Positions 40,843-64,000 of a stretch of DNA of 64,000 nt are shown here, in pieces; positions within the stretch are counted from its first letter, which is position 1, and every line of letters starts with the position of its first letter. The notes below the pieces were generated by a model. That model had not been told where the DNA came from. It did no database searches and saw only the letters and a list, made by a program, of their open reading frames with translations. Source of the DNA: a bacterium (GTDB lineage Bacteria; Patescibacteriota; Microgenomatia; UBA8517); contig CP129472.1 in NCBI GenBank assembly GCA_030583725.1, forward strand, positions 334,958 through 398,957. The letters are read 5' to 3'. A program made the translations under genes and the position numbers.

Positions 40843-41069
40843 ATTGTTGTATTACCATATCGTTAAATTCTACATAAACAGTCCCCACCCTGCCACATTT
40901 TGGGCATCTGAATCTGAATGTGTGAGCCATCCGGGTCTGGAACCGTTTAGTCCCATAACCACTTGGTTCTTACCATTGTCTCACGTCCTGGCTAAACAAG
41001 ACAAATAAGACACTATAAAAGGACTGTCTCAGTTTACTGATGTATTTTGATATAGATAACTACTTATCC

Positions 41070-42722
41070 TTATAACTGAATCTCTTTTCCATCCGAACCA
41101 GCTATAGTCATCTTAATCTTAGAGTCCTTTTTGGGGTATTTTTCCAGAAACTCTTGATTTTCACTCACTAAGTAGATGGTGTGGTACTCGCTTCCATCCT
41201 TTCGCTTCAAATCTCTGCCTTTAAGCAAGCCTTCTCGCCTGAGTTTACGAATTGAGGACGGATGAACGCCTCTATTGGAAGTAATCTCAAATTTATCAAA
41301 CCACTCAGACTTGTCATCGTGTTTACTGCGTTTTAGTGGCGGAATGACACCTTCCACTATATTCCTTCGACAATCGACACAACGTAAGCCATCCAGATTC
41401 CACCAAATCTCATTTCCATAATGACTTTCACCACAAATGCCACAATTGTATGGACCTTCACTGGCTTCTAGGAAGAAACCATCTGGTTCTTTGGTAAGTC
41501 TGCGTTTTCGCATGTTTTCAATGCCGTCATGTTCACCAATGAGTCTTGCGAGTTGGACTAGATTGTTAGAAGCATATTTTTGTCGCTTAGCTTCATCAAT
41601 CTTTGATTTTGGTTTAACAGGTTCTTCTTTCTTGCCAGCGAGTTTAAGCATGTCTTCTTCACGCTCATGGCCCTTTAATCGACCTTCAAGGTATCCAAGT
41701 CTGTAACTGACACTATTGGAGAGTAATCGCCAGTTTGTGTCTTCTAGTGAGTTCTTAATGACCTTTTCTAGCTCCGAAACACTGATTCTGTCTCTTCTGG
41801 ATGAGTCGGCATCTTGAACGGTGAAGGGAACAATCACATATTGGCCTATTTCTGGTTTATCAAACGATAGTTTGGCGTATTTAGCGTTCTCAAGCGACTT
41901 GGTTAGCAAAGTTTCTAGATCAGAGATGTTGGTCTTCTTGAGCTGTAGAGAGCGCTCATAGACAGGATTATCGTACTTTTGCATTTCTTCTTCCCGTACG
42001 ACCTTAGCTACTTCCATCGCCTCTATCAGCTCAATGTATTCTTGACCCTCTTTGTCGGACAAACAGAACTCAGAGCGGTATTTTTCAAGTAACTCCTTGT
42101 CTTTTTTCTTCTCAGCTTCTCGTTCAAGATCTTTCTTGCCCAAATCCTCAACTTCAACTTTCTTGTATTTACATGAGGTACATTTTTCAGTGGTGGTTAT
42201 AACATCGCCTTTTCGTTTGTAGATGGTCTTTATCTCTTTACTACACTCAGGGCATAAATTTGGTTTTGAGATGTGTTCTTCACCATTGTCATACAAGCCT
42301 AGACGCTTCTTGCACTTTGGACATTCAAAAATAAACATAACTCGCATTGGTTTATCTTCTGGCCAGTCTTCCAGATGCTTAAAATCTTCGGCAACCATCT
42401 CGGTTTTACAATGGGGACACAAAACATTGGCAGGTGAAGGGGTATTGTCTACTTTGTCTTGCCTTACTCGATCTTTTTCTACCCAATCGCTGATAGTCTC
42501 TGCTTTACGTCGATATTCCTCACCCTTTTTAACTCGTAGATCCCAAGAAATGTAATGATTAAAACCTTTTTCTACTTCTTCTGGAGAAATTTCTTTAAGC
42601 TTGGGGTCGGTATCTTTTTTCTTGTATAAGTCTTGCCAGAAATGAATAACTTTTAAGCAGGCCTTTATAGTGAAAAGGTCGTAAAGATCAACATAATATT
42701 GTTCATCTTTAAGATATTTCAT
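41070..42722 (-). CDS. multi-zinc-ribbon protein (three CxxC...CxxC ribbons plus a KE-rich coiled coil), unknown family
   Basis: CPHCKTEM...CPKCKKR; CPECSKE...CTSCKYKK; CGICGES...CVDCRRN. A paralog occurs at 63204. Confidence 0.6.
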   Translation of the reverse strand: MKYLKDEQYYVDLYDLFTIKACLKVIHFWQDLYKKKDTDPKLKEISPEEVEKGFNHYISWDLRVKKGEEYRRKAETISDWVEKDRVRQDKVDNTPSPANVLCPHCKTEMVAEDFKHLEDWPEDKPMRVMFIFECPKCKKRLGLYDNGEEHISKPNLCPECSKEIKTIYKRKGDVITTTEKCTSCKYKKVEVEDLGKKDLEREAEKKKDKELLEKYRSEFCLSDKEGQEYIELIEAMEVAKVVREEEMQKYDNPVYERSLQLKKTNISDLETLLTKSLENAKYAKLSFDKPEIGQYVIVPFTVQDADSSRRDRISVSELEKVIKNSLEDTNWRLLSNSVSYRLGYLEGRLKGHEREEDMLKLAGKKEEPVKPKSKIDEAKRQKYASNNLVQLARLIGEHDGIENMRKRRLTKEPDGFFLEASEGPYNCGICGESHYGNEIWWNLDGLRCVDCRRNIVEGVIPPLKRSKHDDKSEWFDKFEITSNRGVHPSSIRKLRREGLLKGRDLKRKDGSEYHTIYLVSENQEFLEKYPKKDSKIKMTIAGSDGKEIQL

Positions 42723-42727
42723 AGCCT

Positions 42728-43579
42728 TTAACTGTCTTTATAGTTTCCTATCTCGAAAATAGCGGCCTGTAAAACCTGCCAGCTAATTTTTGCTGTATGT
42801 TCATGTGGACTAAAACCGCTCGCTACCTGCTGGTAGGGGTGAATGTAATTTCTAAAATCTCTTAGTGCGTGACTATGTTTCTTCACATCATCCCCCAAAA
42901 TTTTGAGATCACTCGCGGTGTCAATAAAATTAGATAGTGTCCAGTTGTGAAAAGGTAGAACTTTTCCTTCTTTCTGAGGGGCGCATTTTGATTGATTGAA
43001 TTTTCTAGCGTATTTACTTGCTGTCCCTAGAAGAATTCCTTCCAATGTGCTGCCACATAAGAAGATAGTTGCTAAAGAAGACTTTGATGATAAACACTTC
43101 CTAATTTCTTCAATTCTTTGGCTAAGGGTATCAGTGATTGTTGTATCCAAACCTAATTTTTCCAGAGAAACACTCTTAAATTCTTTATTTATAAATTCAT
43201 CTTCAGATGATACTTGATCTGATTGTTTTGGCGGTTGGCCTCCCACAAGTCTAATGACGATCTTTTGACATTCATCAAAAAGAGACTGATCGTTACTTGT
43301 AATAACCACGCCATCAATAAGCCTCTTTGTTTTCCAGTACTCTAGTAAGTCGGCTATTAACTTTCCGACAATATGGTTAGGCTCTTGCTCCCATAGAGAT
43401 CTCAGCCTATTAGCTTTTGATCCGCTTGCATAAGAGTATTTATCACTCCATATATCAATTTTTATAGCCGAATGAACAAACTCCTGAAGTTTTTGATTGG
43501 AAAGGTCAAGAACATAACCACCACCCATTTCAAGTATTCGTTCAAGTTTCAATTTTTCAATATTAGTAATATTTGACAT
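42728..43579 (-). CDS. hypothetical protein with C-terminal HEPN-like R-x6-H motif
   Basis: HALRDFRNYIHPYQQ near the C-terminus. There is a 6-nt gap to the AAA_13 gene upstream and a 5-nt gap to the ribbon gene downstream. Confidence 0.5.
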   Translation of the reverse strand: MSNITNIEKLKLERILEMGGGYVLDLSNQKLQEFVHSAIKIDIWSDKYSYASGSKANRLRSLWEQEPNHIVGKLIADLLEYWKTKRLIDGVVITSNDQSLFDECQKIVIRLVGGQPPKQSDQVSSEDEFINKEFKSVSLEKLGLDTTITDTLSQRIEEIRKCLSSKSSLATIFLCGSTLEGILLGTASKYARKFNQSKCAPQKEGKVLPFHNWTLSNFIDTASDLKILGDDVKKHSHALRDFRNYIHPYQQVASGFSPHEHTAKISWQVLQAAIFEIGNYKDS

Positions 43580-43585
43580 GTGTAT

Positions 43586-45814
43586 CTATCCAGTAATTGA
43601 TTTCTCCAATATTGAATAGTGTTCTGGGAATGTTGTTTGAATCATTTCAAGCAAATATTTAACATTCTTTTGAGTCTCTTGAACCAAAGAGGGATCAAGA
43701 CCTTTTCCAGTTATGTGTGATTGATCGTTTGTGAACTTATATATTGCTGTAAGTTTGTTTTGATCAAATTTATCATTTAATGATTCAAGTTTTTTGAACG
43801 GACTCTGGTTGCTTGGGACTCTAAACATTAAGAATGTCTCTAATGCTTTCCTGGCTATATTAGGCATATGATATACAGACATGATTGTGCCATCAGACTT
43901 AAATGTATAGAGAAGTTTAAAAAGAAAATGGTATTCACTCTCATGATCCTGAAGATCTTTGTCTAGCAGGGAGATGCTGGCTACTCTCCCCGCAGTAGTG
44001 TCAGTATTTTTGATCATGTAATAGCTTTTTTCGCCTGCACTGTTAGGAATATTTTTTACCCAATTTAAAAGTAATCTAAGAAAATCAAAATTGTGAGTCA
44101 GTACAAATATTTGCTTTGCATCCTTAACTGAATTTTTTAAGAAGGCAAAAGCTTGAAATAATGAATTAGAATCTAAACTAGATACAGGGTCGTCTATTAC
44201 TAAAATTCCTTCTTTCGTGTCAAAATTCTGATCCTGTAAATGAACAGTAAAATACACGAATGCAATTGCTGTTTTTTCTCCCTCACTTAAATTCTCAGCT
44301 ATTTTTCCATGTCGCTTAATAACATAACCATCACCTTCTACCTCAAAAGTTATTTCATCCCTTCCTAGGAAAGTTTTTATACCATCATTAATCGCCTTAC
44401 AGGCTTTGTGCGAGGAAGATATTTTGCTCTTATTTTCGATGATGGCCTTACTTGTTGATTCAAGATCACTCTTTTTGTTGGTCAAGTCTTTCTTGCTATT
44501 TTCCATTTTTGTCTCAAGTTCATTGATGTCATCAAAAATAGTGCTTAAATAATGTTTTTCCAATTCTTTTTGGGCATTTAATTTTTCATTCTTAAAATTG
44601 TTTGATTTATCATTATGCTGTTTGATCAATTCATTTATTTCACTGATTGCACTAAGAAATTCATCTAGATTTATTTTTTGTTCAAAATTAACTACTTCAG
44701 TGGTCTTTGACTTTTTTTCTTTTACTAAAGTTCCAGCTTTTGTGATCTCACCTAGGATGGTCTTTTTTACTGTCTCAAATTTCTCTGCCTTCTTTTGGTA
44801 ATCTGGTTGAATTTCATCATAAAGATTCGCTTTATCTATCGTTTTTACTGTCTCAATCTGTGAATAAAGTGACCTGAGGTCAGATAAATTCTCGTCGATT
44901 TTAATCTTTAGCTTTTTGTCAGCGTCATTGAAGTGTTTTGCGAGCTCGAGAAGCCTTTCTTTTGGTAAACTTTGATTACAGAATTCGCAGACGGTTGACT
45001 TGTGTGTTTCGTGGATGTGAATACCATTTTCAACCCACTCTGAAATATCGGCATTGTCTTTTAGTTTGTCTATTATTACTGTTTCAACAGTTTCTCTACA
45101 CAAGTTAACGGCTACCTCATTTATTTTTTCTATACCTTTATTGGTGTCATAGGTATTACCCCCAATCACCAACTGAGGAGTGGAAAGTAGGGTTAGCTGA
45201 GGCTTTTCTAGTTGTCTAAGGGTGAGGTTATGCTTAGTAAGTCCAGCCTCATCAATCAATTCCTTCTTTAAAAGTTTTTTGAAAGCTTCTTCGGCGTCTC
45301 GTTTGTCATACCGACGAGTGGCCTCACCTGAGGTGTTGGAACTAATTGTTCTCGCAATATCAGTAAACTTCTTATTTTTATCCTTTTCTTGATTTTCCAA
45401 ATCTAGTTTATGTTTCTTGATTTGAGAATTAAGGCTGATAACTTCTTTCTCATCCTTTTCTATCTGATCTGCAATTTTTTTATTCTCTTCTCCCAGAATG
45501 TATATTGGTTTTGCAGTACAAGATAAGACCTGTACATTATTTGCAACATAATCTTGATTGAACACTCTCACTTTTCTGGAGTAGGTTGTTCCTTGCTTGG
45601 TTACTCCAGATTCAGAATCAATTTCATATTCCAGTTCCGGGAACTTAGTTGACTGTCCAGATTCGAGGGTGTCAAAAAGACTAGAAAGAGTGGTTTTGCC
45701 ACAGCCATTCCATCCATAAATAATGTTGTACCTTTTAAAATCAGGCAAAGAAGAATCCCAGACATAGTCACTGAATATTCCTAAGTTTTTTATCTTCTTA
45801 ATTTTCTTGATCAT
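43586..45814 (-). CDS. AAA_13/RloC-like ABC-type ATPase with long coiled coil and CxxC zinc hook
   Basis: Starts MIKKIKKIKNLGIFSDY (a typical AAA_13 N-terminus), Walker A GWNGCGKTT, a coiled coil of more than 400 aa containing CEFC, and Walker B/D-loop LVIDDPVSSLD. I trimmed 20 codons from the ORF-track start. Confidence 0.7.
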   Translation of the reverse strand: MIKKIKKIKNLGIFSDYVWDSSLPDFKRYNIIYGWNGCGKTTLSSLFDTLESGQSTKFPELEYEIDSESGVTKQGTTYSRKVRVFNQDYVANNVQVLSCTAKPIYILGEENKKIADQIEKDEKEVISLNSQIKKHKLDLENQEKDKNKKFTDIARTISSNTSGEATRRYDKRDAEEAFKKLLKKELIDEAGLTKHNLTLRQLEKPQLTLLSTPQLVIGGNTYDTNKGIEKINEVAVNLCRETVETVIIDKLKDNADISEWVENGIHIHETHKSTVCEFCNQSLPKERLLELAKHFNDADKKLKIKIDENLSDLRSLYSQIETVKTIDKANLYDEIQPDYQKKAEKFETVKKTILGEITKAGTLVKEKKSKTTEVVNFEQKINLDEFLSAISEINELIKQHNDKSNNFKNEKLNAQKELEKHYLSTIFDDINELETKMENSKKDLTNKKSDLESTSKAIIENKSKISSSHKACKAINDGIKTFLGRDEITFEVEGDGYVIKRHGKIAENLSEGEKTAIAFVYFTVHLQDQNFDTKEGILVIDDPVSSLDSNSLFQAFAFLKNSVKDAKQIFVLTHNFDFLRLLLNWVKNIPNSAGEKSYYMIKNTDTTAGRVASISLLDKDLQDHESEYHFLFKLLYTFKSDGTIMSVYHMPNIARKALETFLMFRVPSNQSPFKKLESLNDKFDQNKLTAIYKFTNDQSHITGKGLDPSLVQETQKNVKYLLEMIQTTFPEHYSILEKSITG

Positions 45815-45995
45815 AGTTTTCAATAAACTTCTTGATATCTTCTTTTCTATATTTCCTGTCTTTTCTTGTTCCAAATCGTACAGCCTTAAGAATGCCTTTT
45901 TTATCCCACAATCTTAAGGTATTAGGATGAACTTTTAATAGTTCACAGGCCTCCCTCATGCTCAGTAGTTCTGGTATTTTGTCGTCATTTTTCAT
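45798..45995 (-). CDS. excisionase/AlpA/MerR-type helix-turn-helix DNA-binding protein
   Basis: LSMREACELLKVHPNTLRLWDKKGIL HTH; length 65 aa. Confidence 0.6.
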   Translation of the reverse strand: MKNDDKIPELLSMREACELLKVHPNTLRLWDKKGILKAVRFGTRKDRKYRKEDIKKFIENYDQEN

Positions 45996-46226: not shown

Positions 46227-47555
46227 ATGAAAGACACAAAGATTCAAACGGTGGAAGTTCCCGTGAACGAACTCATCACACCAGACTATAACCCTCGCAA
46301 GCATGACGACCTTGCTAAAGAACAATTAAAAGAAAGCATCCGTCGATTTGGGATTGTCGACCCGATAGTCGCAAACTCCTCGCTTGCCCGCAAAAACATA
46401 GTTATCGGAGGCAACTTTAGGTTGGAGACAATCAAAGAGCTAGGTTACACCACCGTTCCTGTCGTATACGTCGATATACCAGATCTTGATAGGGAAAAAG
46501 AACTCAATATTCGCCTCAATAAAAATACTGGCGAGTTTGATTGGAATCTGTTGGCGAAGTTCGATGTCTCGCTACTTACTGATATTGGTTTTACCAGCGG
46601 TGAACTCGACACGATCTTTGATATCGAAGACACGCCTGAGGAATTTAATCTTGAAAAAGAGTTAAAGAAGCTAGACATAGAGACTATAAACACTAAAAAA
46701 GGTGATGTGTATGAGTTGGACGGAAGTCGGTTAATGTGTGGCGACTCAACAATAGTAGAAGACTTCACCAAGCTTATGAATGGTGAGAAAGCGGATATGT
46801 GTTTTACTGATCCGCCTTACATCCTCGATTACCTCAATGGCAAGAAAAAGCATGGCTCGGCAGTTACAGGGTTTGGTGCAAAGCGAGATAGAAGATATTT
46901 GGAAACTGATGTGCTTCCACCAGACTTTACTGAGAAATGGATGGGCAATATCGCCAAAGCCCAAAAAGAACATTTCAGTATTATTGTTTACGAGAACTGG
47001 AAGAACATTCGTACCATTTGGGGTGAGATGGAGAAATTCTGGAAGGTTAAGAACATGATCGTCTGGCACTTACCCAACAGACATCAAGGATTTTCAGCTA
47101 AACACAAGTTTTTCTCTAAACATGACATAGCCATGGTTGGTGCTTCACCAGATGTAGATGTTGAGTTCAACTGGGAAGAAGAAGCAGACGGGTTACAAGA
47201 AGAATACGAGACCGCACTATATGCCATAGCAGGCAAACCCCACTGGGAAGGCTACGAGCGAGGCAGGAAGAACCAACCAACTGATTTCATCGAGTACGTA
47301 GCCTCAGATGAGAAGCATTCTGGGCAAGGTGTAATTTTTGGTACGAAGCCCACTGAAATCCTCATTCCATATATTAAGATGCTCACTAAGCGTGGCGATC
47401 TCATTATTGAGCCATTTGGAGGCAGTGGAAGCACTCTGATGGCCTCAACCAAGATGAAGCGCCGATGCTACATCATGGAAAAATCGCCAGTCTATACCGA
47501 GGTCATTATTAAACGCTGGGGAAAGCTGACTGGACTAAAAGCAAAGAAACTATGA
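46227..47555 (+). CDS. ParB-like nuclease domain fused to beta-class N6A/N4C DNA methyltransferase
   Basis: An N-terminal ParB/Srx fold pattern, then DPPY (CFTDPPYILDY) and a later FGGSGST motif I (EPFGGSGSTLMA). This is the beta order, IV before I. Confidence 0.8.
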   Translation: MKDTKIQTVEVPVNELITPDYNPRKHDDLAKEQLKESIRRFGIVDPIVANSSLARKNIVIGGNFRLETIKELGYTTVPVVYVDIPDLDREKELNIRLNKNTGEFDWNLLAKFDVSLLTDIGFTSGELDTIFDIEDTPEEFNLEKELKKLDIETINTKKGDVYELDGSRLMCGDSTIVEDFTKLMNGEKADMCFTDPPYILDYLNGKKKHGSAVTGFGAKRDRRYLETDVLPPDFTEKWMGNIAKAQKEHFSIIVYENWKNIRTIWGEMEKFWKVKNMIVWHLPNRHQGFSAKHKFFSKHDIAMVGASPDVDVEFNWEEEADGLQEEYETALYAIAGKPHWEGYERGRKNQPTDFIEYVASDEKHSGQGVIFGTKPTEILIPYIKMLTKRGDLIIEPFGGSGSTLMASTKMKRRCYIMEKSPVYTEVIIKRWGKLTGLKAKKL

Positions 47556-48148
47556 TCGATGAAACTACTGCCAAACGCCAAGCGAGGAATAAGGAACTAC
47601 TGTTACTACAGTTCACTAAGATACCAATTGTCCAAATTGCATGTGAGAAGGTTGGGATTAGCCGAGCCAGTTACTATCGCTGGCGACAAGAAGACAAAGA
47701 TTTTGCTGATAAATCTGATGTGGCCATTGGCGAAGGAACTCTACTCATGAATGACATGGCAGAGTCTCAGCTTCTTTCATTAATAAAGGATAAGCACCCA
47801 ACAGGAATTATCTTTTGGCTTAAACATCATCATCCCACTTATGCGCCAAAATATGAGATTTCAACGATCAGCAATAAAGATAGCCTGACGGAAGCAAATA
47901 TAAATGAACTGACACAGCTTCTCTATAACAAAAGCACCTTTAAACAGGGTCAGGAGATGCTGACCTCATATGTTTTTAGAGGTTTTATCAGCGAAAAATT
48001 TGCCCAGTTAATACTAAAGATGTTTATCTCCCAACTTCGAGCTGAAGATGTTATGACCAGAAAAGCTGAAGCTGAAATTATGACTGAAGTCCTAAGAAGA
48101 AAAGTAGAACGCAAAGAAAAGAAGAAATTCGAAAAAACATGGACTTAA
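47552..48148 (+). CDS. HTH-domain protein (terminase-small-subunit / transposase-HTH-like)
   Basis: IACEKVGISRASYYRWRQED HTH. A 4-nt overlap with the upstream gene. Confidence 0.45.
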   Translation: MIDETTAKRQARNKELLLLQFTKIPIVQIACEKVGISRASYYRWRQEDKDFADKSDVAIGEGTLLMNDMAESQLLSLIKDKHPTGIIFWLKHHHPTYAPKYEISTISNKDSLTEANINELTQLLYNKSTFKQGQEMLTSYVFRGFISEKFAQLILKMFISQLRAEDVMTRKAEAEIMTEVLRRKVERKEKKKFEKTWT

Positions 48149-53163: not shown

Positions 53164-53910
53164 TCAATAAATATATCTACTGAAAGCGTTATGAACGCAG
53201 GGTGCCTTTTTCTTACAATGATTGCTAAATCCTAAAGAATTTGACTCATTTTCAACATCAATTGGAAGGAACCTGGCACATCTGTTGCACGATTTACTCA
53301 CAATATATCCAGGCTCAATTTGCTCAGGATCTTTAACATCAAAGTCAAATTCACAAGAATCGAGATAGTAAATATCCGGTTTATATAAATCTGTCTTTTC
53401 ATAGAAAGCATTAAAGTAATTCGATTTTTCAGCATAGAATTTGACTACATCTGCATACAGCTCATATATTTCCAATTGGAAGTTGGGTGTGGCTGACACG
53501 ATTTTCAGAGAAACTGAGACACTGTAAGTTTTGGCACCATCTTCTACTTCTATTTGTAGGTCGTTTCCCACTCTAACCCAATGACTATTAGAGACCTTAT
53601 AGGTTTTCTTGGACTCAGCAATTAAACCGCTCTCATCAGTCAACTCGATCTTTATAGTTAACTCTGAATTTGTACTAATTTTTATGTAACCACCAGCACC
53701 ATAAATTCCTAGGTTCTTATCAAACAATTTAGTGAAGACGACACTAGGATCTTTTTTAGAAAGAGTTATCTGAGAACCATTAATTCTGAAAACTTTAGTT
53801 TGTGATAATAAACATTCACTACCTGTTTTAATACCACCAACATTAAATCCGCTTCTTTGTCTAGTTAGCCTTCTTTTTGGCTGCAAAAATTTAGATAATT
53901 TTATTTCCAT
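53164..53910 (-). CDS. hypothetical protein
   Basis: A 248-codon ORF with a C-terminal Cys/His cluster (CNRCARF...HCKKKAPCVH). Confidence 0.4.
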   Translation of the reverse strand: MEIKLSKFLQPKRRLTRQRSGFNVGGIKTGSECLLSQTKVFRINGSQITLSKKDPSVVFTKLFDKNLGIYGAGGYIKISTNSELTIKIELTDESGLIAESKKTYKVSNSHWVRVGNDLQIEVEDGAKTYSVSVSLKIVSATPNFQLEIYELYADVVKFYAEKSNYFNAFYEKTDLYKPDIYYLDSCEFDFDVKDPEQIEPGYIVSKSCNRCARFLPIDVENESNSLGFSNHCKKKAPCVHNAFSRYIY

Positions 53911-53981
53911 GATGGAATTATATCGGGTATAAGACTATTATGCTATTTTGAACCTAGACTTCCTCAAGAGACAGCGGTACA

Positions 53982-55337
53982 TTGACTACTGAAATGAGTG
54001 CCAAATACAACCAAAATACGACGATAGAACCGCCCAAGATAGAATATTGTCTCTATGCTCGTAAGTCTTCGGAATCCGATGAAAGGCAAGCAATGTCGAT
54101 TGATTCTCAGATTGATGAGATGCTGACTTTAGCTAAACGAGATAATTTAAAAATTAAAGCGATTAAAAAAGAAAGTCATTCTGCAAAAATGTCTGGATCA
54201 AGACCTGTATTTACTGAATTACTTCAAGATTTAAGACAAAAGAAATTTAACGGAATTTTAACTTGGGCTCCTGATAGGCTTTCGAGAAACGCAGGAGACT
54301 TAGGATCTGTAGTTGATTTAATGGATCAAGGAAAATTAGTAAAAATCCAGACATATTCACAAAGTTTTTCAAACAGTCCAAATGAAAAGTTTTTATTAAT
54401 GATTCTCTGCTCTCAAGCAAAGCTTGAAAATGATAACAAAGGATTAAACGTTCAAAGAGGGTTGAGAACTAAGTGTAGTATGGGGTGGAGACCATCAGTT
54501 GCTCCTCTGGGTTATCTAAATCAAGCAGGAGATGGACATAAAGACGAACTCATCATTATTGACCAAGAACGATCCTCCTTTGTCAAACAGATGTTTGATC
54601 GGATGGCGAACCAAGGTCACAGTGGAAGGGCTATAAAGAACTGGTTAGATAGAATTGGGTTTAAAACTAAAAATGATAAACCACTAGCATTAAGTAGGTT
54701 ATATACAACTCTTAGTAACCCTTTTTATTATGGAGAATTTGAATTTCCAGTTGGAAGTGGAACTTGGTATCAAGGAAAGCATAAACCATTAATCTCAAAG
54801 GAATTGTTTGACAAAGTTCAAATAATGCTTGAAACACCTCCAAAAAGCTATCACAATAAGATCTTTCCGTTTAAAAAGATATTTAGATGTGGTGGTTGTA
54901 ACGGTGGAATAACTGCTGATGACAAACTTAGAAAATTAAAAGGTGGTGGGTATACTAAACATATTTACTATCACTGTGCTAGATCTGTAAATTACGAGTG
55001 TGACGAGCCGTATATTACCGAAAACGATTTAGTAAAACAATTAATTGCAAACATAGATAAAATTAAATTCAACAACTCTGGTATAAATAGAAAAATTCAA
55101 GAAGATATTGAAAGATATCATAGACTAAAAACACAAGTGCTACACCAAGAATTTATAGACGGGTATCTACCAGAATTTAATAGAGTTCCACAAACCACAA
55201 TTGATAAAAACGAAATGACTAAAAACTATCTTTTGCACATATTACAAGTTGGAACTGCTGAAGAAAGACAAGAAGCATTGAGTTTTATCAAAACTAAATT
55301 TATTCTATCTAAAAGAACTATAACAATAGAAAAATAA
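53982..55337 (+). CDS. large serine recombinase (phage-type serine integrase)
   Basis: A resolvase catalytic domain (YARKSSESDERQAMSIDSQ with the catalytic Ser), a recombinase domain and a zinc ribbon (CGGCNG...HCARS); length 451 aa. Confidence 0.85.
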   Translation: MTTEMSAKYNQNTTIEPPKIEYCLYARKSSESDERQAMSIDSQIDEMLTLAKRDNLKIKAIKKESHSAKMSGSRPVFTELLQDLRQKKFNGILTWAPDRLSRNAGDLGSVVDLMDQGKLVKIQTYSQSFSNSPNEKFLLMILCSQAKLENDNKGLNVQRGLRTKCSMGWRPSVAPLGYLNQAGDGHKDELIIIDQERSSFVKQMFDRMANQGHSGRAIKNWLDRIGFKTKNDKPLALSRLYTTLSNPFYYGEFEFPVGSGTWYQGKHKPLISKELFDKVQIMLETPPKSYHNKIFPFKKIFRCGGCNGGITADDKLRKLKGGGYTKHIYYHCARSVNYECDEPYITENDLVKQLIANIDKIKFNNSGINRKIQEDIERYHRLKTQVLHQEFIDGYLPEFNRVPQTTIDKNEMTKNYLLHILQVGTAEERQEALSFIKTKFILSKRTITIEK

Positions 55338-55512
55338 CTCCAGATTAATATCTGGTGTACTTTTCGTTGTCTAAACTTGGTCTAAAACAAGGCCATTTCT
55401 TCACTATTACAGGATATAAAAGTGTTTTCTGGGCAAGATGATAGAAGATTAGCAAGTGTTGTTGAGCTTTTCTGGCCATGCGAGCAGGTCTGGCTGAACC
55501 TTGCGATATATG

Positions 55513-55586
55513 TGACCCCAGTGAGATTCGAACTCACGATCTCTTGGATGAGAACCAAGTGTCCTAGGCCACTAGACGATGGGGCC
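55513..55586 (-). tRNA. tRNA-Glu (anticodon CUC)
   Basis: Hand-folded cloverleaf on the minus strand. The acceptor stem is GGCCCCA/UGGGGUC, the D-arm is UCUAGUGGCCUAGGA, the anticodon stem CUUGG/CCAAG has loop UUCUCAU, and the T-arm is GUUCGAAUC. No encoded CCA. Confidence 0.8.
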
Positions 55587-55599
55587 TCCTAGAATAGGG

Positions 55600-59698: not shown

Positions 59699-60041
59699 CG
59701 TTTGGTATAATTACGCTTGATATATTATCTCGTCGGATAACGGTAAACAAGTTTTGGCCGTTATCCGATTTAGGTAGTTGTTGTTTATTATGCCTCGTCG
59801 GCTAACGGTAGGCCAAATGATTCTGGATCATTTTATCTTCGTTCGAATCGAAGCGAGGCAGCCAGGTTACGTACTATCATGAAAAAAGTTGTAAAAACAC
59901 ACTTATTCCGATTCTATTCTGATGTAATTCCTTGTAAGCAGGCCTCTTAAGCAACACGCACAAAAGCTGTCTTGTAAATAAATATTAGTTTCCTTATCTA
60001 TTTTTATAAAGATCTAAATCCTTATCAAGATAGGTCTCTCG

Positions 60042-60357
60042 TTCTCATCTTAAAACAACTGACTCCGGTCAACAACAAAAAATTATAATTGACAAGTATT
60101 CAGGCTCAATTTTGAGATAATACACACCAACCTTTTTGTCCTTTGTCAAGAGTTGGTATTTTATGAAGATTAATTTTACAAATACAATGAAGACTATTAT
60201 GGCTATTTCTTGTAAAAGCACTTATTCTCATCTTAAAACAACTGACTCCGGTCAACAACAAAAAATTATAATTGACAAGTATTCAGGCTCAATTTTGAGA
60301 TAATACACACCAACCTTTTTGTCCTTTGTCAAGAGTTGGTATTTTATGAAGATTAAT
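60042..60357. repeat. perfect 133-bp tandem direct repeat (60042-60174 and 60225-60357) separated by a 50-bp spacer
   Basis: Identical copies read directly. Each unit contains TTGACA/TTATAAT promoter-like hexamers and the hairpin CCAAC-N20-GTTGG. Confidence 0.9.
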
Positions 60358-60370
60358 AATACGAAGAAAG

Positions 60371-60814
60371 ATGGAGAATAAGTTTTTGCTTATTGACTTT
60401 AAAAATTCTGTCCTTATAATAATTCTTATTATGGCTGATCCATTAGATAAAATCTTTACACCCGATCGAGAGGTCGATTCGCAGTTGCTTTCAGACATAT
60501 TGTTTCCATTTGTTAAGATCAATTCCGAAGACTTATCAATATTTTTTACCAACTTAGGAAATAAATTGCCCATAAATAAAAAGCTCATCATTTTTTTGCT
60601 GGCCAAAAAGGCTTTGTATATAAAGGGTAAGGTAGAGCTCGAGAGCGTGACTCCAAATGACATTATCGATCAGACAGATTTAAAATCAGGAAGCGTACAC
60701 CCCGGTTTGAAGCAATTAAGGGATAAAAATTTGGTAATTGTTAAAGACGGTAGGTATTTTATTCCTAATTATCAAATCAATGAAATGAAGAATCTCTTCT
60801 TAGAAGGCAAGTAA
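60371..60814 (+). CDS. small winged-helix-like protein (paralog pair A, member 1)
   Basis: Its C-terminal half aligns with the next ORF (KKLIIFLLAKKALYIKG... against KKILIYLLALRGWPYVI...). An alternative start is at 60431. Confidence 0.45.
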   Translation: MENKFLLIDFKNSVLIIILIMADPLDKIFTPDREVDSQLLSDILFPFVKINSEDLSIFFTNLGNKLPINKKLIIFLLAKKALYIKGKVELESVTPNDIIDQTDLKSGSVHPGLKQLRDKNLVIVKDGRYFIPNYQINEMKNLFLEGK

Positions 60815-60815
60815 T

Positions 60816-61202
60816 ATGGCATTAAAAGATTTAACAATAGATCAAGGTCAGATGTTAGAAGAACTTATAGAAAGTTCTGTAAGTTCATATATTAGGTACG
60901 ATATTAATCAAAAGGCTGTAATCTTCCTCCCGGAAGCATTGAGAAATTTATCGGTCCAAAAAAAGATTTTGATATACTTGCTTGCTTTAAGGGGTTGGCC
61001 ATATGTTATAGAGTCAACAGACATTTCTCAGGAAGCTCAACCCAAGGATATCGCCAAGGCTATAACGGAAAACGGAAGTACGGTTAGGAACAACCTTCAG
61101 TCTTTGTTAAAAGATGGCCTTATTTTGAAAAGTGCTACCAAATATTCAATTTCGCAAATTGCAATAACGAGAATCGAAGATTTTATGAGAGAAGAAAGAT
61201 AG
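60816..61202 (+). CDS. small winged-helix-like protein (paralog pair A, member 2)
   Basis: Paralogous to the preceding ORF, with a 1-nt gap between them. Confidence 0.45.
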   Translation: MALKDLTIDQGQMLEELIESSVSSYIRYDINQKAVIFLPEALRNLSVQKKILIYLLALRGWPYVIESTDISQEAQPKDIAKAITENGSTVRNNLQSLLKDGLILKSATKYSISQIAITRIEDFMREER

Positions 61203-61206
61203 AAAT

Positions 61207-61614
61207 ATGGAAAAGAAGATACAAGAAGCATTAAAAAAAGCAAAAGACATCATCAACAACTCTGAAATAGGAGATGATTTACGAAGTGCCGGTTTTAGAG
61301 AAGTCTTCCGTCTTTTAATTTCTTCTGATGTAGACTCTGGAAAAACTCAATTAAAGACTGAATCTGATTCTGGTTTAGCAGCTCCAAGGACAAAAAGTAA
61401 GGCTAGGGGCAAGGTTGCTGGAATAGTAGATGAACTAATAAGTAACGGTTATTTTGCAGAAAAGAGAAGAGATATTGACTGCATTGAACAAATAAATCTT
61501 GTAAAAGGAATAAAAATTCCGCGAAACCAGATGGCCACTATTCTCGTACGAAAACTAAGAAGCGGAGTTTTAAAGAGAGAGAAAATCACAACAGGTTATG
61601 TATATTTTAAATAA
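61207..61614 (+). CDS. small winged-helix-like protein
   Basis: A C-terminal wing-like pattern (LVRKLRSGVLKREKITTGYVYF). Confidence 0.4.
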   Translation: MEKKIQEALKKAKDIINNSEIGDDLRSAGFREVFRLLISSDVDSGKTQLKTESDSGLAAPRTKSKARGKVAGIVDELISNGYFAEKRRDIDCIEQINLVKGIKIPRNQMATILVRKLRSGVLKREKITTGYVYFK

Positions 61615-61617
61615 ATT

Positions 61618-62028
61618 ATGAAAACAGATATTTCTACTATTTTAAAGCAGATTACAGATCTTAAGAGAAGGGTCTCCGTTCTTGAAAGACAGATAGTAAA
61701 CCAGCCCGAACAAATAATTAATAGTGTCAAGGAATTATCATTGAAAGAATTCTTGCTTGAAAAAAGGCCGAAAAACGATGTACAAAAAACTTTTTATATA
61801 GGAGTGTATTTGGAAAAATATAAAGGAATAGGTTCGTTTACAATGGATGATATCAAAAAAGCATTCAAAGTTGCCAAAGAACCCTCTCCCTTAAATATAA
61901 ACGACAAAATTAATAAAAATATCTCTAAAGGTCGTTTTATGGAATCGGATACTAGAGATGGAAAAAAGACTTGGATGTTGACTTCGACAGGTGAACAGGC
62001 GGCAAATAGTGATACGGAAATTAAATGA
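61618..62028 (+). CDS. small coiled-coil + winged-helix-like protein (paralog pair B, member 1)
   Basis: LKQITDLKRRVSVLERQ followed by a wing region. Paralogous to the next ORF. Confidence 0.45.
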   Translation: MKTDISTILKQITDLKRRVSVLERQIVNQPEQIINSVKELSLKEFLLEKRPKNDVQKTFYIGVYLEKYKGIGSFTMDDIKKAFKVAKEPSPLNINDKINKNISKGRFMESDTRDGKKTWMLTSTGEQAANSDTEIK

Positions 62029-62035
62029 AATAACT

Positions 62036-62446
62036 ATGGACGATTTGACAAGCATAATAGATCAACTGAAAGATCACGAGAAACGTATTTCTGCTTTGGA
62101 AGGAAACCTTACAAGTAATAATTTAAAAACAACTTCAAAGGTAAAAGAATTGACAATAACAGAATTGGTAAAAGGGGAAAAATTTCATTCTGGACAGAAA
62201 AAAATTGCCACGATTGTTGGATATTGCGAGAAGATACTTAAATTAGAAAAAATTGATGAAGGTAAGATTAAAAATAATTGGGTAAATGGTAAATTTGACG
62301 GAAAATATAGAAGCAACTTTATTGAACGCGCCGTTGGTGACGGATTGATAAGAGATTTGGAAGACGGAACATACGACCTTAGCCAAACCGGGGAAAGTTT
62401 CTTTGAAGAATTACTTCATAAAAACAATGGAAAAACTCAAAGCTGA
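62036..62446 (+). CDS. small coiled-coil + winged-helix-like protein (paralog pair B, member 2)
   Basis: The start was moved to ATG 62036 (MDDLTSIIDQLKDHEKRISALEGNL). Paralogous to the preceding ORF. Confidence 0.45.
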   Translation: MDDLTSIIDQLKDHEKRISALEGNLTSNNLKTTSKVKELTITELVKGEKFHSGQKKIATIVGYCEKILKLEKIDEGKIKNNWVNGKFDGKYRSNFIERAVGDGLIRDLEDGTYDLSQTGESFFEELLHKNNGKTQS

Positions 62447-63182
62447 TCTTGCCATAAAGGTTGATGACGAAAAGTTAATCGAAAACTTATTTTCTAGCTT
62501 TCAAAAGATATCTGAAGAATATATAGCGCAGAAACCCGTTGACTTACTTCAAAATACTGGTCTTTTTCTGGAATCTGTTATGAGAGTTACCCAACATTTA
62601 ATAGAGGGCAAGCACACCCCTCTTGGGGGAAAATTTGGTTTAGACGATTGTGTAAAAAATCTCGAATCAGTCGCTGGAAACGACGGGCTAAGAATACATG
62701 TTTCAAGATTAAGCCGTGCAATCTATGATTTCAGAAGCAGAAAGAAATCTGTACATCTTAAGGCCACGGATCCCCAAGCAATAGATGCAGACTTAGTTTT
62801 TAACGTATGTAACTGGATTTTGATAGAGGTATTAAAAGAAAGCGGTGTTGCTGGAGCAGAACAAGAAATAAAGATCCTTCACACCAGAAAAGTTCCGTTA
62901 GTCCAAAGTGTGGGTGGTATATTAAGAACTACAAACCCAAAACTATCTGGAACCCAAAGGATTTTATTACTACTCTATTCCAACCCGGATGGAATATCGG
63001 TTGATGAATTACTAGAAAGTACAAAAATTAAGATTAAAAACAAAAATCACATGAACAAGGATTTAAAAAACCTAGAAACTAGGGATATGGTTCACTTACT
63101 TCCAAACGGAAATTGGACATTGTTTGGGCGTGGTTTTAATGAGGCAGAGGTTATAATAAGTAAATTTTCTTCCTTAAACTAA
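62427..63182 (+). CDS. HEPN-like (R-x4-6-H) plus C-terminal winged-helix protein
   Basis: SRLSRAIYDFRSRKKSVH motif, with C-terminal ILLLLYSNPDGISVDELLE...GNWTLFGRG. Confidence 0.45.
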   Translation: MEKLKADLAIKVDDEKLIENLFSSFQKISEEYIAQKPVDLLQNTGLFLESVMRVTQHLIEGKHTPLGGKFGLDDCVKNLESVAGNDGLRIHVSRLSRAIYDFRSRKKSVHLKATDPQAIDADLVFNVCNWILIEVLKESGVAGAEQEIKILHTRKVPLVQSVGGILRTTNPKLSGTQRILLLLYSNPDGISVDELLESTKIKIKNKNHMNKDLKNLETRDMVHLLPNGNWTLFGRGFNEAEVIISKFSSLN

Positions 63183-63203
63183 TACCCTAAAATATAATTA
63201 GTT

Positions 63204-64000
63204 ATGAATAATTTAGGGGATGAACAGCATTACAACAATTTATATGATCTCCATACGATAGAAGAATGTTTACAAAGTCACAAATTTGCCATAAAAAGTA
63301 AGCCTCAGAAACCCAAGGGCTCCAGAGTAAAAGCTATCAGAATAGTTACAGATCTTTTACTTATTACATTAAGGGTGAAAGATATAGGAAAAAGTCGGAA
63401 ACGATTCGAGAATGGATGGCTAGAGATAAAGAAAAGGATGATAGGGTTGAAAATGCAGTTACTCCGCGAAACGTTTATTGTGATTCTTGTTCAAACGAGA
63501 TGAATATGACCATGAAACATCTGTCATCTAACGACACAAGAGTAATGTTTTGGTTCGAATGTCCAAATAAATGCAAAAAAAGAAAGGCAGTTTTTGACAA
63601 TGGCGAGGAATTTAAACCAGAACCCCCGCTATGCCCTAGATGTTCTGGAAAACTTAATGAAAAGCTTGAAAGGAAAGGTGAGGCATTAATAACTTATATC
63701 TCCTGTCCCAACTGCAAATATAAAAATAAAGAAATTATCGATTATGAGAAGGATAGAAAAGAATGGGCAGAAAAGAAAAGGAAAGATAAAGAGCTACTTA
63801 AAAAATACAGATGGCAATTTTGTTTAAACGAAAAAGAGGGTCAAGAATACATTTCTCATATAGAAAGCATGAAACGACTTAGGGAGGTAATGGAAGAAAG
63901 TGAGAAAAAACAAAAAGACCCCACTTACAAGAAAGTTCAAAAACTGAAAAGGTTAAAGATCACTGATCTAAGGGAAAACCTGGAGAAAATACTTACAAAA
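63204..64000 (+). pseudogene. paralog of the 550-aa multi-zinc-ribbon protein, apparently frameshifted (-1 near 63300-63330), continuing past the window end
   Basis: Frame A (63204-) gives MNNLGDEQHYNNLYDLHTIEECL, which matches the paralog's MKYLKDEQYYVDLYDLFTIKACL. Frame B, from about 63302, gives ...IKGERYRKKSETIREWMARDKEKDDRVEN...FECPNKCKKRKAVFDNGEEF...CPRCSG...CPNCKYK, which matches the paralog's ...VKKGEEYRRKAETISDWVEKDRVRQDKVDN...FECPKCKKRLGLYDNGEEH. Confidence 0.55.

What the first reader, a model, noticed from the sequence alone, without database searches (positions are those of the whole stretch)
62427..64000. The HEPN-like gene followed by the multi-zinc-ribbon gene recurs at a second locus
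The 259-aa protein at 62427-63182 carries DFRSRKKSVH (R-x4-6-H) plus a C-terminal winged helix. It is immediately followed, after a 21-nt gap, by a paralog of the 550-aa zinc-ribbon protein. The first locus has the same order: the HEPN-like 283-aa protein with its RDFRNYIH motif, then the ribbon protein after a 5-nt gap. The two ribbon proteins align along their N-termini, the CxxC ribbons and the KE-rich coiled coil (KDKELLEKYRSEFCLSDKEGQEYIELIEAMEV against KDKELLKKYRWQFCLNEKEGQEYISHIESMKR). A conserved adjacency at two loci suggests a functional pair, for example a toxin/effector with a partner, that other modules can recruit. The second copy reads in two frames with a shift near 63300-63330, so it is either a decaying copy, a sequencing error or a programmed frameshift. 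It also runs off the window.
Basis: seen in the sequence. Interest (0 to 1): 0.7.

Follow-up and report, generated by a model that had tools for sequence, protein, structure and literature searches.

The report
Defence-cargo slot beside a conserved gene
The two "HEPN-like gene followed by zinc-ribbon gene" loci are real, but they are two copies (one complete, one a remnant) of a mobile-element layout in uncultured ultra-small (CPR/Patescibacteria) bacteria, in which a conserved zinc-ribbon gene sits just after a slot that holds different anti-phage genes in different genomes, so this is not a dedicated gene pair.

Summary
A 251-aa protein (62427-63182) is followed after 21 nt by a paralog of the 550-aa zinc-ribbon protein (45% identity, E 4e-97), and that paralog reads in two frames.

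Both upstream proteins belong to the HEPN superfamily, but to unrelated families (hhalign probability 0.3%).

The "functional pair" reading fails. Among 547 proteins flanking 67 ribbon genes from other genomes, none belongs to either HEPN family. Of 35 loci of the 251-aa family with enough downstream DNA, only one has a ribbon gene.

Instead, the ribbon gene is a backbone gene of a Patescibacteria integrative element. The order is serine recombinase, HTH protein, ParB-methyltransferase, a variable slot, ribbon, then a conserved about 135-nt terminal sequence.

The slot holds Dsr1/SIR2, CBASS-like, Gabija, Lamassu-like, RT, restriction-modification or DUF6119 genes in relatives. In one relative it is empty.

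Locus 2 is a remnant of a second such element. A metagenome relative (L086) keeps the full layout with an intact 349-aa short-form ribbon.

The frameshift is a 1-nt deletion in a T run at 63355-63358. dN/dS is 0.06, so it is either very recent or a read error.

The function of the ribbon protein remains unknown.

The parts
62427..63182 (+). 251-aa protein with an N-terminal HEPN-fold domain and a C-terminal winged helix. It is the last gene of the locus-2 cargo cassette.
60371..62446 (+). Five tightly packed small ORFs (147, 128, 135, 136 and about 136 aa; the last probably starts at ATG 62036). They form one operon with the 251-aa gene.
   Evidence: ORFs. Spacings are 1-8 nt. Weak paralogy: s128 with s147 at E 1e-4, s136 with s151 at E 4e-6. 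Relatives of the 251-aa gene are preceded by 3-5 such ORFs in every neighbourhood read. Among 64 family loci, tblastn finds s151-like ORFs in 31, s136-like in 19 and s147-like in 15.
63204..64000 (+). Ribbon copy 2, a short-form paralog (N-terminal module only). It is frame-shifted and continues to window-equivalent position about 64306.
   Evidence: Frame 0 covers 63204-63503 and frame 2 runs from 63302. The extension comes from the identical contig L080. It is 45% identical to the 550-aa copy, E 4e-97. It is 88% identical in protein to the intact 349-aa ortholog in L086.
63355..63358 (+). T4 run that carries the 1-nt deletion causing the frameshift.
   Evidence: DNA alignment to L086, which has T5 and a single open frame. 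Restoring one T gives a colinear 367-aa protein. dN/dS against L086 is 0.04 upstream and 0.06 downstream of the shift.
59791..59864 (+). tRNA-Gln(ctg) at the left edge of locus 2.
   Evidence: ARAGORN and Rfam. Window 59891-59983 is 91% identical to the stretch just upstream of the ParB-methyltransferase start in L086. The element backbone therefore appears to have been lost up to this point.
60042..60365 (+). Two copies of a 141-nt direct repeat (98% identical, 183 nt start to start) immediately upstream of the first small ORF.
   Evidence: the repeat finder family D1. It was not found in other loci.
41070..42722 (-). Ribbon copy 1, the 550-aa long form. It has three Cys4 sites, a coiled coil, a ferredoxin-like domain and a C-terminal helix-turn-helix-like domain.
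   Evidence: More than 446 homologs, 50-92% identical, from Patescibacteria, with no Pfam domain. Twelve Cys are invariant, in three groups of four. The AF2 model has pLDDT 83.7. No informative structural neighbour was found.
42728..43579 (-). 283-aa DUF4145-type HEPN protein (abortive-infection-like). It is cargo in locus 1.
   Evidence: DUF4145 match at E 1.6e-4, 22.1 bits against a cutoff of 23.1. 26 of 40 family members match. F242, R243, N244, Y245, I246 and H247 are invariant. The family has 4733 members in many phyla and stands alone in other islands.
43586..45874 (-). 762-aa AAA_13 ATPase, the PADLOC candidate defence gene PDC-S06. It is cargo in locus 1.
   Evidence: Pfam AAA_13 at E 1.9e-134. 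PADLOC PDC-S06 at E 2.6e-260.
46227..47555 (+). ParB_N-N6/N4 DNA methyltransferase. It is the backbone gene on the other side of the cargo slot and is transcribed divergently.
   Evidence: Pfam and PHROGs. It is present upstream of the ribbon gene in 29 loci. Homology with L001 stops about 30 nt before its ATG.
47552..48148 (+). 198-aa HTH protein (terminase-small-like or transposase-like HTH). Backbone gene.
   Evidence: Pfam HTH_Tnp_1_2 and PHROG small-terminase hits. It is syntenic with the ParB-methyltransferase in 24 loci.
53982..55337 (+). Large serine recombinase, the likely integrase of element 1.
   Evidence: Resolvase, Recombinase and Zn_ribbon_recom domains; PHROG integrase at E 3e-60. 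Homologs lie in the same position in 17 loci and in L086.
55512..55586 (-). tRNA-Glu(ctc) abutting the recombinase end of element 1.
   Evidence: ARAGORN and Rfam. The motif GGTTCAGCCAGACC lies at 55500, just inside it.
40922..41058 (-). Conserved non-coding terminal sequence of the element. It starts 12 nt after the stop of ribbon copy 1.
   Evidence: blastn finds it in 32 ribbon loci (33 locus ids including the duplicate L002), always in the same orientation, 15 nt to 7.7 kb downstream of the ribbon gene. Alignment A6. Homology with L001, L003 and L010 ends at 40922. There is no Rfam or tRNA hit.

Best explanation
Both loci are instances of one mobile-element architecture found in Patescibacteria (CPR).

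The backbone has a left arm of a large serine recombinase, a small HTH protein and a ParB-DNA-methyltransferase. It has a right arm of the zinc-ribbon gene plus a conserved terminal sequence of about 135 nt. Between the divergently transcribed methyltransferase and ribbon genes lies a hypervariable slot. In different genomes this slot holds different, mostly anti-phage, gene cassettes. A second slot lies between the ribbon stop codon and the terminal sequence.

Locus 1 (about 40922-55500) is a complete element next to tRNA-Glu. Its slot holds an AAA_13/PDC-S06 ATPase and a stand-alone DUF4145-type HEPN protein.

Locus 2 (tRNA-Gln to about 64800) is a remnant of a second, diverged element that has lost its left arm. 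Its slot holds a different cassette of five small proteins plus a HEPN-winged-helix protein. Its ribbon gene is the natural short form and carries a 1-nt deletion.

The repeated order 'HEPN-like, then ribbon' therefore arises for two reasons. The ribbon gene is the fixed first gene after the slot. HEPN effectors are very common in defence cargo (that second point is my own knowledge).

Shown: the architecture, the cargo turnover, the sharp homology breakpoints, the HEPN folds and the nature of the frameshift.

Inferred: that the cassettes act in defence; that the ribbon protein is an element or backbone factor, probably nucleic-acid binding through its Cys4 ribbons and C-terminal HTH-like domain; and that it is co-transcribed with whatever lies upstream.
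For: 1. Synteny. In 69 genome loci the ribbon gene follows the order recombinase(-), HTH(-), ParB-MTase(-), variable DNA, ribbon(+). ParB-MTase is present in 29 loci, the HTH protein in 24 and the recombinase in 17.
2. Slot size. In 19 loci with a close ParB-MTase the slot is 249 nt (empty, L011) to 9.7 kb.
3. Variability. The 67 immediate upstream neighbours fall into clusters of at most 4. Of 378 neighbour clusters, 311 are singletons.
4. Content. The two upstream genes include Dsr1/SIR2, RT-protease, GajB, LmuA, ZorD-like, PbeA, type I and II RM, DUF2779 and SMODS.
5. Cargo differs between close relatives. A ribbon 92% identical has HTH + SIR2 + a 960-aa protein (L144). One 90% identical has a SIR2/Dsr1-like cassette (L001). 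One 83% identical has DUF6119 (L145). One 78% identical has LexA + SMODS (L002/L003).
6. Breakpoints. DNA homology between the window and L001 breaks exactly at the ribbon ATG (42722), about 30 nt before the ParB-MTase ATG (46197), and at 40922.
7. Locus 2 in its ancestral state. L086 carries the recombinase, HTH protein, ParB-MTase, small ORFs, the 251-aa gene (97% identical) and an intact 349-aa ribbon.
8. Neither HEPN family is otherwise linked to the ribbon gene.
9. Element 1 is bounded by tRNA-Glu and by the only two copies in the window of the motif GGTTC(N0-4)AGACC, both on the same strand.
Against: - 40 of 69 ribbon loci show no ParB-MTase within 10 kb, so the ribbon gene is not strictly tied to that backbone.
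- The upstream gene is co-oriented in 44 of 60 cases. The gap is typically 0-30 nt, and six cases overlap by 17-20 nt. This is equally what a functional, translationally coupled partner would look like.
- No excision or circular form has been observed.
- The att sites are only suggested by one short motif, for which roughly 0.6 chance matches per window are expected.
- The defence role of the locus-2 cassette is unsupported by any library.
Confidence: 0.75

Rival explanations
1. A HEPN-like toxin or effector and the zinc-ribbon protein form a dedicated two-gene system that has been duplicated within this genome.
For: The gene order and tight spacing are the same at both loci. Both upstream proteins are HEPN-superfamily members. 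A fused zinc-finger + DUF4145 HEPN defence protein, RAZR, exists (PMC13017515).
Against: - The two HEPN-like families are unrelated at profile level (probability 0.3%).
- None of 547 neighbour proteins of 67 ribbon genes belongs to either family.
- Only 1 of 35 loci of the 251-aa family with downstream DNA has a ribbon gene.
- The 283-aa family stands alone in Flavobacterium and CPR islands.
- The real conserved partners of the 251-aa gene are the small upstream ORFs.
Confidence: 0.04
2. The ribbon protein is a generic accessory (sensor, regulator or adaptor) that many different defence systems in CPR bacteria use. That would explain why it is kept as the last gene of their operons.
For: - 44 of 60 upstream genes are co-oriented, with gaps mostly under 30 nt and frequent overlaps.
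- It sits beside defence genes even in loci with no ParB-MTase, for example a Gabija-like pair in L062 and type I RM in L051.
- The family is strongly conserved, 50-92% identity across CPR classes.
- Copy 2 has dN/dS 0.06.
Against: - L011 has the ribbon gene 249 nt from the ParB-MTase with no cargo at all.
- The same defence families work elsewhere without it.
- Defence genes also lie downstream of it, in a second slot.
- Homology between elements breaks exactly at its ATG, as expected for a flanking backbone gene.
Confidence: 0.13
3. The ribbon protein is itself a stand-alone defence (or anti-defence) gene that simply accumulates in defence islands.
For: It lies in defence-rich neighbourhoods. 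It is absent from known phages and plasmids and present in only 3 IMG/VR contigs.
Against: - It has no recognisable enzymatic or effector domain.
- Its position is fixed relative to the backbone genes and the terminal sequence rather than scattered within islands.
- It is unusually well conserved for a defence gene.
Confidence: 0.06
4. The two-frame reading of copy 2 is a programmed frameshift, not a lesion or an error.
For: Both parts are under strong purifying selection relative to L086 (dN/dS 0.04 and 0.06). The same sequence is found in two assemblies.
Against: The ortholog in L086 is a single ORF. The site (GAT CTT TTA C) is not an X XXY YYZ slippery heptamer. A T4 run is too short for transcriptional slippage. 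The last two points rest on reading the sequence and on general knowledge.
Confidence: 0.02

Closest known systems
Defence hotspots of P2-like prophages and P4-like satellites (PMC9122126); also hotspot 5 of SXT-type ICEs (that one from my own knowledge)
   Same: Conserved mobile-element genes flank a slot whose content changes between close relatives and is rich in anti-phage systems. An integrase sits at one end and the element lies next to a tRNA gene.
   Different: The host group differs (uncultured Patescibacteria). The backbone differs (large serine recombinase, ParB-methyltransferase, an uncharacterised zinc-ribbon protein). No structural or transfer genes are seen in this window. Mobility has not been shown.
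Serine recombinases as markers of anti-phage defence systems (PMC13552941; title and abstract only)
   Same: A serine recombinase gene is found together with variable defence cargo.
   Different: That work concerns small serine recombinases. Here the recombinase is a 451-aa large serine recombinase, and the closest fixed neighbour of the cargo is the ribbon gene, not the recombinase.
RAZR, the ring-activated zinc-finger RNase (PMC13017515)
   Same: It combines a Cys4 zinc ribbon with a DUF4145-type HEPN RNase in phage defence.
   Different: RAZR is one fused protein. Here the HEPN and ribbon functions are separate genes that are not linked across genomes. The 550-aa ribbon protein has a much larger, unrelated architecture. 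Homology to RAZR was not tested.
DUF4145 / AbiJ-like stand-alone HEPN abortive-infection proteins (PMC3710099)
   Same: The 283-aa protein has a C-terminal DUF4145-like HEPN domain with the conserved R...N..H motif. It has an N-terminal helical domain and occurs singly in defence islands.
   Different: Its Pfam score is just under the curated cutoff. The N-terminal domain is not assigned to a named AbiJ-NTD. RNase activity has not been tested.
HEPN proteins fused or paired with winged-helix regulators (Csx1/Csm6-type CARF-wHTH-HEPN; HEPN-MNT toxin-antitoxin pairs). Comparison from my own knowledge.
   Same: The 251-aa protein joins a HEPN fold to a winged helix. It is encoded with small winged-helix-like proteins that could control it.
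   Different: There is no CARF domain, no MNT partner and no CRISPR context. The array of 3-5 small ORFs has no counterpart in the libraries searched.

Membership tests
HEPN superfamily (251-aa protein, 62427-63182) | All-alpha up-down helical bundle of the HEPN fold | tested here: met
HEPN superfamily (251-aa protein, 62427-63182) | Conserved R-x4-6-H motif | tested here: met
   R103 and H110 (R-x6-H) are invariant and R105 (R-x4-H) is at least 90% conserved in 50 sequences. The motif lies in a lower-confidence loop of the model, residues 101-115.
HEPN superfamily (251-aa protein, 62427-63182) | Sequence-profile match to a described HEPN family | tested here: not met
   There is no Pfam, NCBIfam, PADLOC or PHROG hit. 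hhalign against the DUF4145-type family A5 gives probability 0.3%.
HEPN superfamily (251-aa protein, 62427-63182) | RNase activity that depends on the R and H residues | not testable with these tools
   This needs biochemistry.
Pfam DUF4145 (PF13643, a HEPN family) for the 283-aa protein | Profile match at or above the curated cutoff | tested here: inconclusive
   The score is 22.1 bits against a cutoff of 23.1, E 1.6e-4. 26 of 40 family members match at E < 0.01, best 3.9e-5. One homolog carries a precomputed PF13643 hit.
Pfam DUF4145 (PF13643, a HEPN family) for the 283-aa protein | Conserved Arg/His catalytic motif | tested here: met
   F242, R243, N244, Y245, I246 and H247 are invariant and R240 is at least 90% conserved in 40 sequences.
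   tblastn finds the 251-aa family in 0 of 69 loci and the 283-aa family in 1 of 69, not adjacent. None of 547 neighbour proteins matches by HMM. Only 1 of 35 loci of the 251-aa family has a ribbon gene.
   BLASTP gives a best E of 0.19. hhalign gives E 0.18, probability 0.3%.
Mobile-element defence hotspot | Conserved flanking genes with sharp homology breakpoints around a variable segment | tested here: met
   Between the window and L001 the breakpoints lie at the ribbon ATG (42722) and at 46197. The same pattern is seen with L003, L005, L009, L010 and L011.
Mobile-element defence hotspot | Different cargo in close relatives | tested here: met
   Ribbons 78-92% identical have four different cassettes. 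Neighbour clustering gives a largest cluster of 4 among the 67 upstream neighbours.
Mobile-element defence hotspot | Cargo enriched in known defence systems | tested here: met
   PADLOC and Pfam hits among 96 upstream proteins include Dsr1, RT-protease, GajB, LmuA, ZorD, PbeA and type I/II RM. Window cargo includes PDC-S06. No background rate was computed, so the enrichment is qualitative.
Mobile-element defence hotspot | Integrase and insertion next to a tRNA gene | tested here: met
   In locus 1 the large serine recombinase (53982-55337) lies beside tRNA-Glu. Locus 2 has tRNA-Gln but no recombinase. Its relative L086 has one.
Mobile-element defence hotspot | Demonstrated excision or transfer | not testable with these tools
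   This needs read-level evidence of empty sites or circular junctions, or an experiment.
PADLOC PDC-S06 (762-aa AAA_13 ATPase) | Full-length match to the family model | tested here: met
   PDLC04894 at E 2.6e-260, covering residues 21-758 of 762. Pfam AAA_13 at E 1.9e-134.
Programmed ribosomal frameshift (ribbon copy 2) | Slippery heptamer, with the frameshift conserved in orthologs | tested here: not met
   The ortholog in L086 is a single ORF with one more T. No X XXY YYZ heptamer is present at 63351-63360 (read from the sequence).

The most novel reading that the evidence does not exclude
The zinc-ribbon family may be more than a passive flank. It could be the factor that makes or services the slot. 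One version is a DNA-binding protein (three Cys4 ribbons plus an HTH-like domain) that recognises the GAGACA/TGTCTC repeats of the conserved terminal sequence. A second version is a regulator of whatever cassette is inserted. In either case it would be a CPR-specific, previously undescribed organiser and marker of defence islands. Separately, the cassette of 3-5 small winged-helix-like proteins plus a HEPN-winged-helix protein would be a new defence or toxin-antitoxin system.
Probability: 0.2. Interest if true: 0.7.

Novelty: new member of a known kind. Interest (0 to 1): 0.45.

Why it matters
Defence hotspots on mobile elements are well known in Enterobacteria, Vibrio and Pseudomonas. I found no description of one for the Candidate Phyla Radiation. 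Three full-text searches turned up no paper on this element or on the ribbon family.

If the architecture holds, the ribbon gene (with the ParB-methyltransferase and the terminal sequence) is a practical anchor for mining new anti-phage systems. These organisms cannot be cultured, and one study reports them as unusually rich in defence genes (PMC12259885, abstract).

The work also shows that a plausible-looking 'conserved pair' within one genome can be a by-product of hotspot architecture.

Tried and rejected
1. My first estimate was that copy 2 had lost about 28 nt relative to copy 1 (reasoning). This was wrong. The L086 ortholog shows that the short stretch is natural for this subfamily and that only one T is missing.
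2. I first took the stop after residue about 365 and the following 162-aa ORF as a second disruption of a 550-aa gene. I rejected this. Short-form ribbon genes of 359-366 aa end at the same place in many genomes. The 162-aa ORF is unrelated to the ribbon C-terminus and has no homolog in any fetched locus.
4. Ribbon homologs were sought in cultured-phage and plasmid collections. None were found.
5. I tried to read the conserved terminal sequence as an RNA. There was no Rfam hit even at E 1. There was no tRNA or tmRNA. RNAalifold gave no consensus structure. Single-sequence folds had z-scores of -2.3 to +1.0. It remains unexplained.
6. I looked for long direct repeats bounding element 1. None were found. 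Only the short GGTTC...AGACC motif lies at both ends.
7. One literature search (PDC-S06 / AAA_13) matched irrelevant text and was wasted.
Full report
**1. The observation**

- ORF 62403-63182 (259 aa from TTG) is followed after 21 nt by an ATG at 63204.
- From 63204, frame 0 matches the N-terminus of the 550-aa protein encoded at 41070-42722 on the minus strand. From about 63350 the match continues in frame 2 to the window end.
- A degenerate DNA pattern for the shared KDKELLEKY peptide occurs exactly twice in the window, against 0 expected.
- In locus 1, the 283-aa protein (42728-43579, minus strand) precedes the ribbon gene by 5 nt. It is itself preceded by a 762-aa protein.

Homologs of the locus-2 protein all start at the ATG at 62427, so the protein is 251 aa.

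**2. Are the upstream proteins HEPN-like, and are they related?**

The 251-aa protein:
- It has no hit in Pfam, PADLOC, NCBIfam or PHROGs.
- It belongs to a conserved family of 119 proteins in the search, all about 250 aa and from CPR bacteria.
- R97, D101, F102, R103, K106 and H110 are invariant in that family.
- An AlphaFold2 model built on 50 sequences has mean pLDDT 87.6.

The 283-aa protein:
- It scores 22.1 bits on Pfam DUF4145, against a cutoff of 23.1.
- 26 of 40 family members hit that model.
- DUF4145 is a HEPN family (PMC3710099). It is the catalytic domain of the defence RNase RAZR (PMC13017515).

So 'HEPN-like' is right for both. The two families are not specifically related, however. 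BLASTP gives a best E of 0.19. hhalign of the two profiles gives probability 0.3%. The only aligned stretch is the catalytic-motif helix.

**3. Is the pair conserved?**

It is not.
- The ribbon protein has more than 446 homologs at 50-92% identity, essentially all from Patescibacteria. None carries a Pfam domain.
- I fetched 69 genome loci with 10-kb flanks.
- tblastn with all window proteins found the 251-aa family in none of these loci. It found the 283-aa family in one, 8 kb away.
- Profile HMMs of both families found nothing among 547 proteins lying within five genes upstream or four downstream of 67 ribbon genes.
- In the other direction, every neighbourhood of the 251-aa family shows 3-5 small co-oriented ORFs upstream and variable genes downstream.
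- Of 35 loci of that family with at least 1.2 kb of downstream DNA (26 distinct contexts), only one has a ribbon gene.
- The 283-aa family (4733 hits, many phyla) stands alone in islands of Flavobacterium and CPR genomes.

**4. What the ribbon gene is linked to**

The same tblastn search showed a recurrent layout. The order is:
- a large serine recombinase (-), present in 17 loci;
- a 198-aa HTH protein (-), present in 24 loci;
- a ParB_N-N6/N4 methyltransferase (-), present in 29 loci;
- variable DNA;
- the ribbon gene (+).

The variable segment:
- It measures 249 nt (empty, L011) to 9.7 kb.
- The gene just upstream of the ribbon gene is co-oriented in 44 of 60 cases. The median gap is about 10 nt.
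- These upstream genes are extremely diverse. The largest of the clusters among 67 such genes has four members, and 311 of 378 neighbour clusters are singletons.
- Pfam and PADLOC scans of the two upstream genes give Dsr1/SIR2, RT-protease, GajB, LmuA, ZorD-like, PbeA, type I/II restriction-modification, DUF2779 and SMODS.
- A LexA-like repressor with a SMODS/AGS_C gene recurs either upstream or downstream of the ribbon gene.

Close relatives of the window's ribbon gene carry different cargo:
- 92% identical: HTH, a 188-aa protein, SIR2 and a 960-aa protein (L144).
- 90% identical: a SIR2/Dsr1-like cassette (L001).
- 83% identical: DUF6119 (L145).
- 78% identical: LexA, a 172-aa protein, SMODS and a 249-aa protein (L002).

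The window itself carries the AAA_13 ATPase that PADLOC calls PDC-S06 (E 2.6e-260), plus the DUF4145 protein.

DNA homology between the window and L001 breaks exactly at the ribbon ATG (42722) and about 30 nt before the methyltransferase ATG (46197). These are the properties of a cargo hotspot flanked by mobile-element backbone genes. The same pattern has been described for P2/P4 elements (PMC9122126).

**5. The element in the window**

- Downstream of the ribbon stop codon lies a conserved non-coding stretch (40922-41058, minus strand).
- The same stretch recurs in 32 ribbon loci, always in the same orientation, 15 nt to 7.7 kb after the ribbon gene.
- Homology with L001, L003 and L010 ends at 40922.
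- A second variable slot therefore lies between the ribbon gene and this terminal sequence. It is empty here.
- At the other end, the serine recombinase (53982-55337) abuts tRNA-Glu(ctc) at 55512-55586.
- The motif GGTTC(N0-4)AGACC occurs only twice in the 64-kb window, at 40944 and 55500, both on the minus strand.
- I therefore read element 1 as about 40922-55500.
- Between the 264-aa gene and the recombinase it also carries an 891-aa DNA methyltransferase and an HNH protein.

**6. Locus 2**

- A Logan contig (L080) is identical to window 60328-64000 and extends it.
- In L080, copy 2 ends at family residue about 365. This is the linker where the AlphaFold model of the long form has its only low-confidence segment (residues 366-370).
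- It is also where a natural short form (359-366 aa) ends in many genomes.
- An unrelated 162-aa ORF follows, then housekeeping genes (Ham1, HAD).

The metagenome contig L086 carries a 97%-identical 251-aa gene inside the full canonical layout. Its order is:
- recombinase;
- HTH protein;
- ParB-methyltransferase;
- small ORFs;
- the 251-aa gene;
- an intact 349-aa ribbon gene.

The window keeps 93 nt of the L086 methyltransferase-proximal intergenic region (59891-59983) directly after tRNA-Gln. Locus 2 is therefore a remnant that has lost its left arm.

**7. The frameshift**

- Aligned to L086, the window lacks one T in a T5 run (63355-63358). Restoring it gives a colinear 367-aa protein.
- dN/dS against L086 is 0.04 before and 0.06 after the shift. 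Selection has therefore acted on the whole gene until very recently.
- The lesion is either very young or a read error.
- Two assemblies agree on T4, but they may rest on the same reads.
- There is no slippery heptamer and the ortholog is a single ORF, so a programmed shift is unlikely.

**8. What the ribbon protein does**

This remains open. The model (pLDDT 83.7) shows the following domains:
- a long helical hairpin (residues 7-93);
- a beta-rich domain with two Cys4 sites (C102/105/134/137 and C157/160/181/184);
- a coiled coil (194-260);
- a ferredoxin-like domain (266-351);
- a linker;
- a third Cys4 ribbon (C427/430/448/451);
- a small helix-turn-helix-like domain (477-528).

My preferred reading is a nucleic-acid-binding backbone factor of the element. 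I cannot exclude that it is a generic accessory of the upstream cassettes or a defence gene in its own right. The rivals section gives these readings 0.13 and 0.06 respectively.

**9. Verdict**

- The interpretation as a functional HEPN-ribbon pair is not supported.
- What is there is a CPR integrative-element or defence-island architecture with a conserved anchor gene, seen twice in one genome.
- It is a new member of a known kind.
- It is of moderate interest, mainly as a handle for finding defence systems in Patescibacteria. The still-uncharacterised ribbon protein, the terminal sequence and the small-ORF + HEPN-winged-helix cassette add to that interest.

Noticed in passing
window 40922-41058 (minus strand); also L001 7665-7801, L010 13159-13294, L035 15452-15517 and about 29 more loci: A conserved non-coding element of about 135 nt lies downstream of ribbon genes. 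It contains GAGACA/TGTCTC repeats that change in concert (GTCCC with GGGACA in L035, L039 and L041). Its 3' part resembles a tRNA T-arm (GGTTCCAGACC). There is no Rfam, tRNA or RNAalifold support. It may be the element terminus or att site, a protein-binding array, or a small RNA.
   Followed up: partly
window 60371-63182; L072-L079, L081, L086-L140: A conserved operon of 3-5 small (about 127-161 aa) winged-helix-like proteins followed by the 251-aa HEPN-winged-helix protein. It is found in at least 26 distinct CPR contexts and matches nothing in PADLOC, Pfam or PHROGs. It is a candidate new defence or toxin-antitoxin cassette.
   Followed up: partly
window 60042-60182 and 60225-60365: A 141-nt direct repeat (98% identical, 183 nt start to start) lies between tRNA-Gln and the first small ORF of locus 2. 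It is not found in any fetched locus, including the close relative L086.
   Followed up: partly
window 40944 and 55500 (both minus strand): These are the only two matches in the window to GGTTC(N0-4)AGACC. They lie at the two proposed ends of element 1, one of them 12 nt inside tRNA-Glu's 3' flank. They could be att core remnants. About 0.6 chance matches per window are expected.
   Followed up: partly
L006 17494-17718 and 18930-21218, compared with window 55512-57969: In L006 the terminal element ends 18 nt before a tRNA-Glu(ctc), which is followed by Lon. In the window the same tRNA-Glu and Lon lie at the opposite (recombinase) end of the element. The tRNA-Glu/Lon region may be a preferred insertion site.
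   Followed up: no
L001 3135-6020, L003 9238-10020, L005 9373-10020, L006 7144-10017, L010 9184-10017: Unrelated upstream cargo genes all end 17-20 nt inside the ribbon ORF, at the same out-of-frame TGA created by the conserved GAT GAA (Asp-Glu) codons. This suggests translational coupling, or that cargo junctions lie right at the ribbon start.
   Followed up: partly
window 49742-53015: An 891-aa N6/N4 DNA methyltransferase with a convergent 203-aa HNH protein lies inside element 1. The same pair (71-72% identical) lies about 7 kb upstream of the ribbon gene in L004. It is probably a further restriction-modification-like cargo.
   Followed up: no
window 40819-40929 (minus strand): A small 36-aa ORF with a CxxC motif (MAHTFRFRCPKCGRVGTVYVEF...) starts at the 3' edge of the terminal element. 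I did not test whether it is real.
   Followed up: no
L080 3989-4477 (window-equivalent about 64316-64804): A 162-aa ORF directly after ribbon copy 2 has no homolog in any fetched locus. L086 has three different minus-strand genes in that position, so the second slot is also variable at locus 2.
   Followed up: partly
window 42728-43579: The 283-aa protein is 100% identical to an NCBI MAG protein with locus tag QY322_02085, on an 841,695-nt contig labelled only 'bacterium'. That is presumably the source genome of the window.
   Followed up: no
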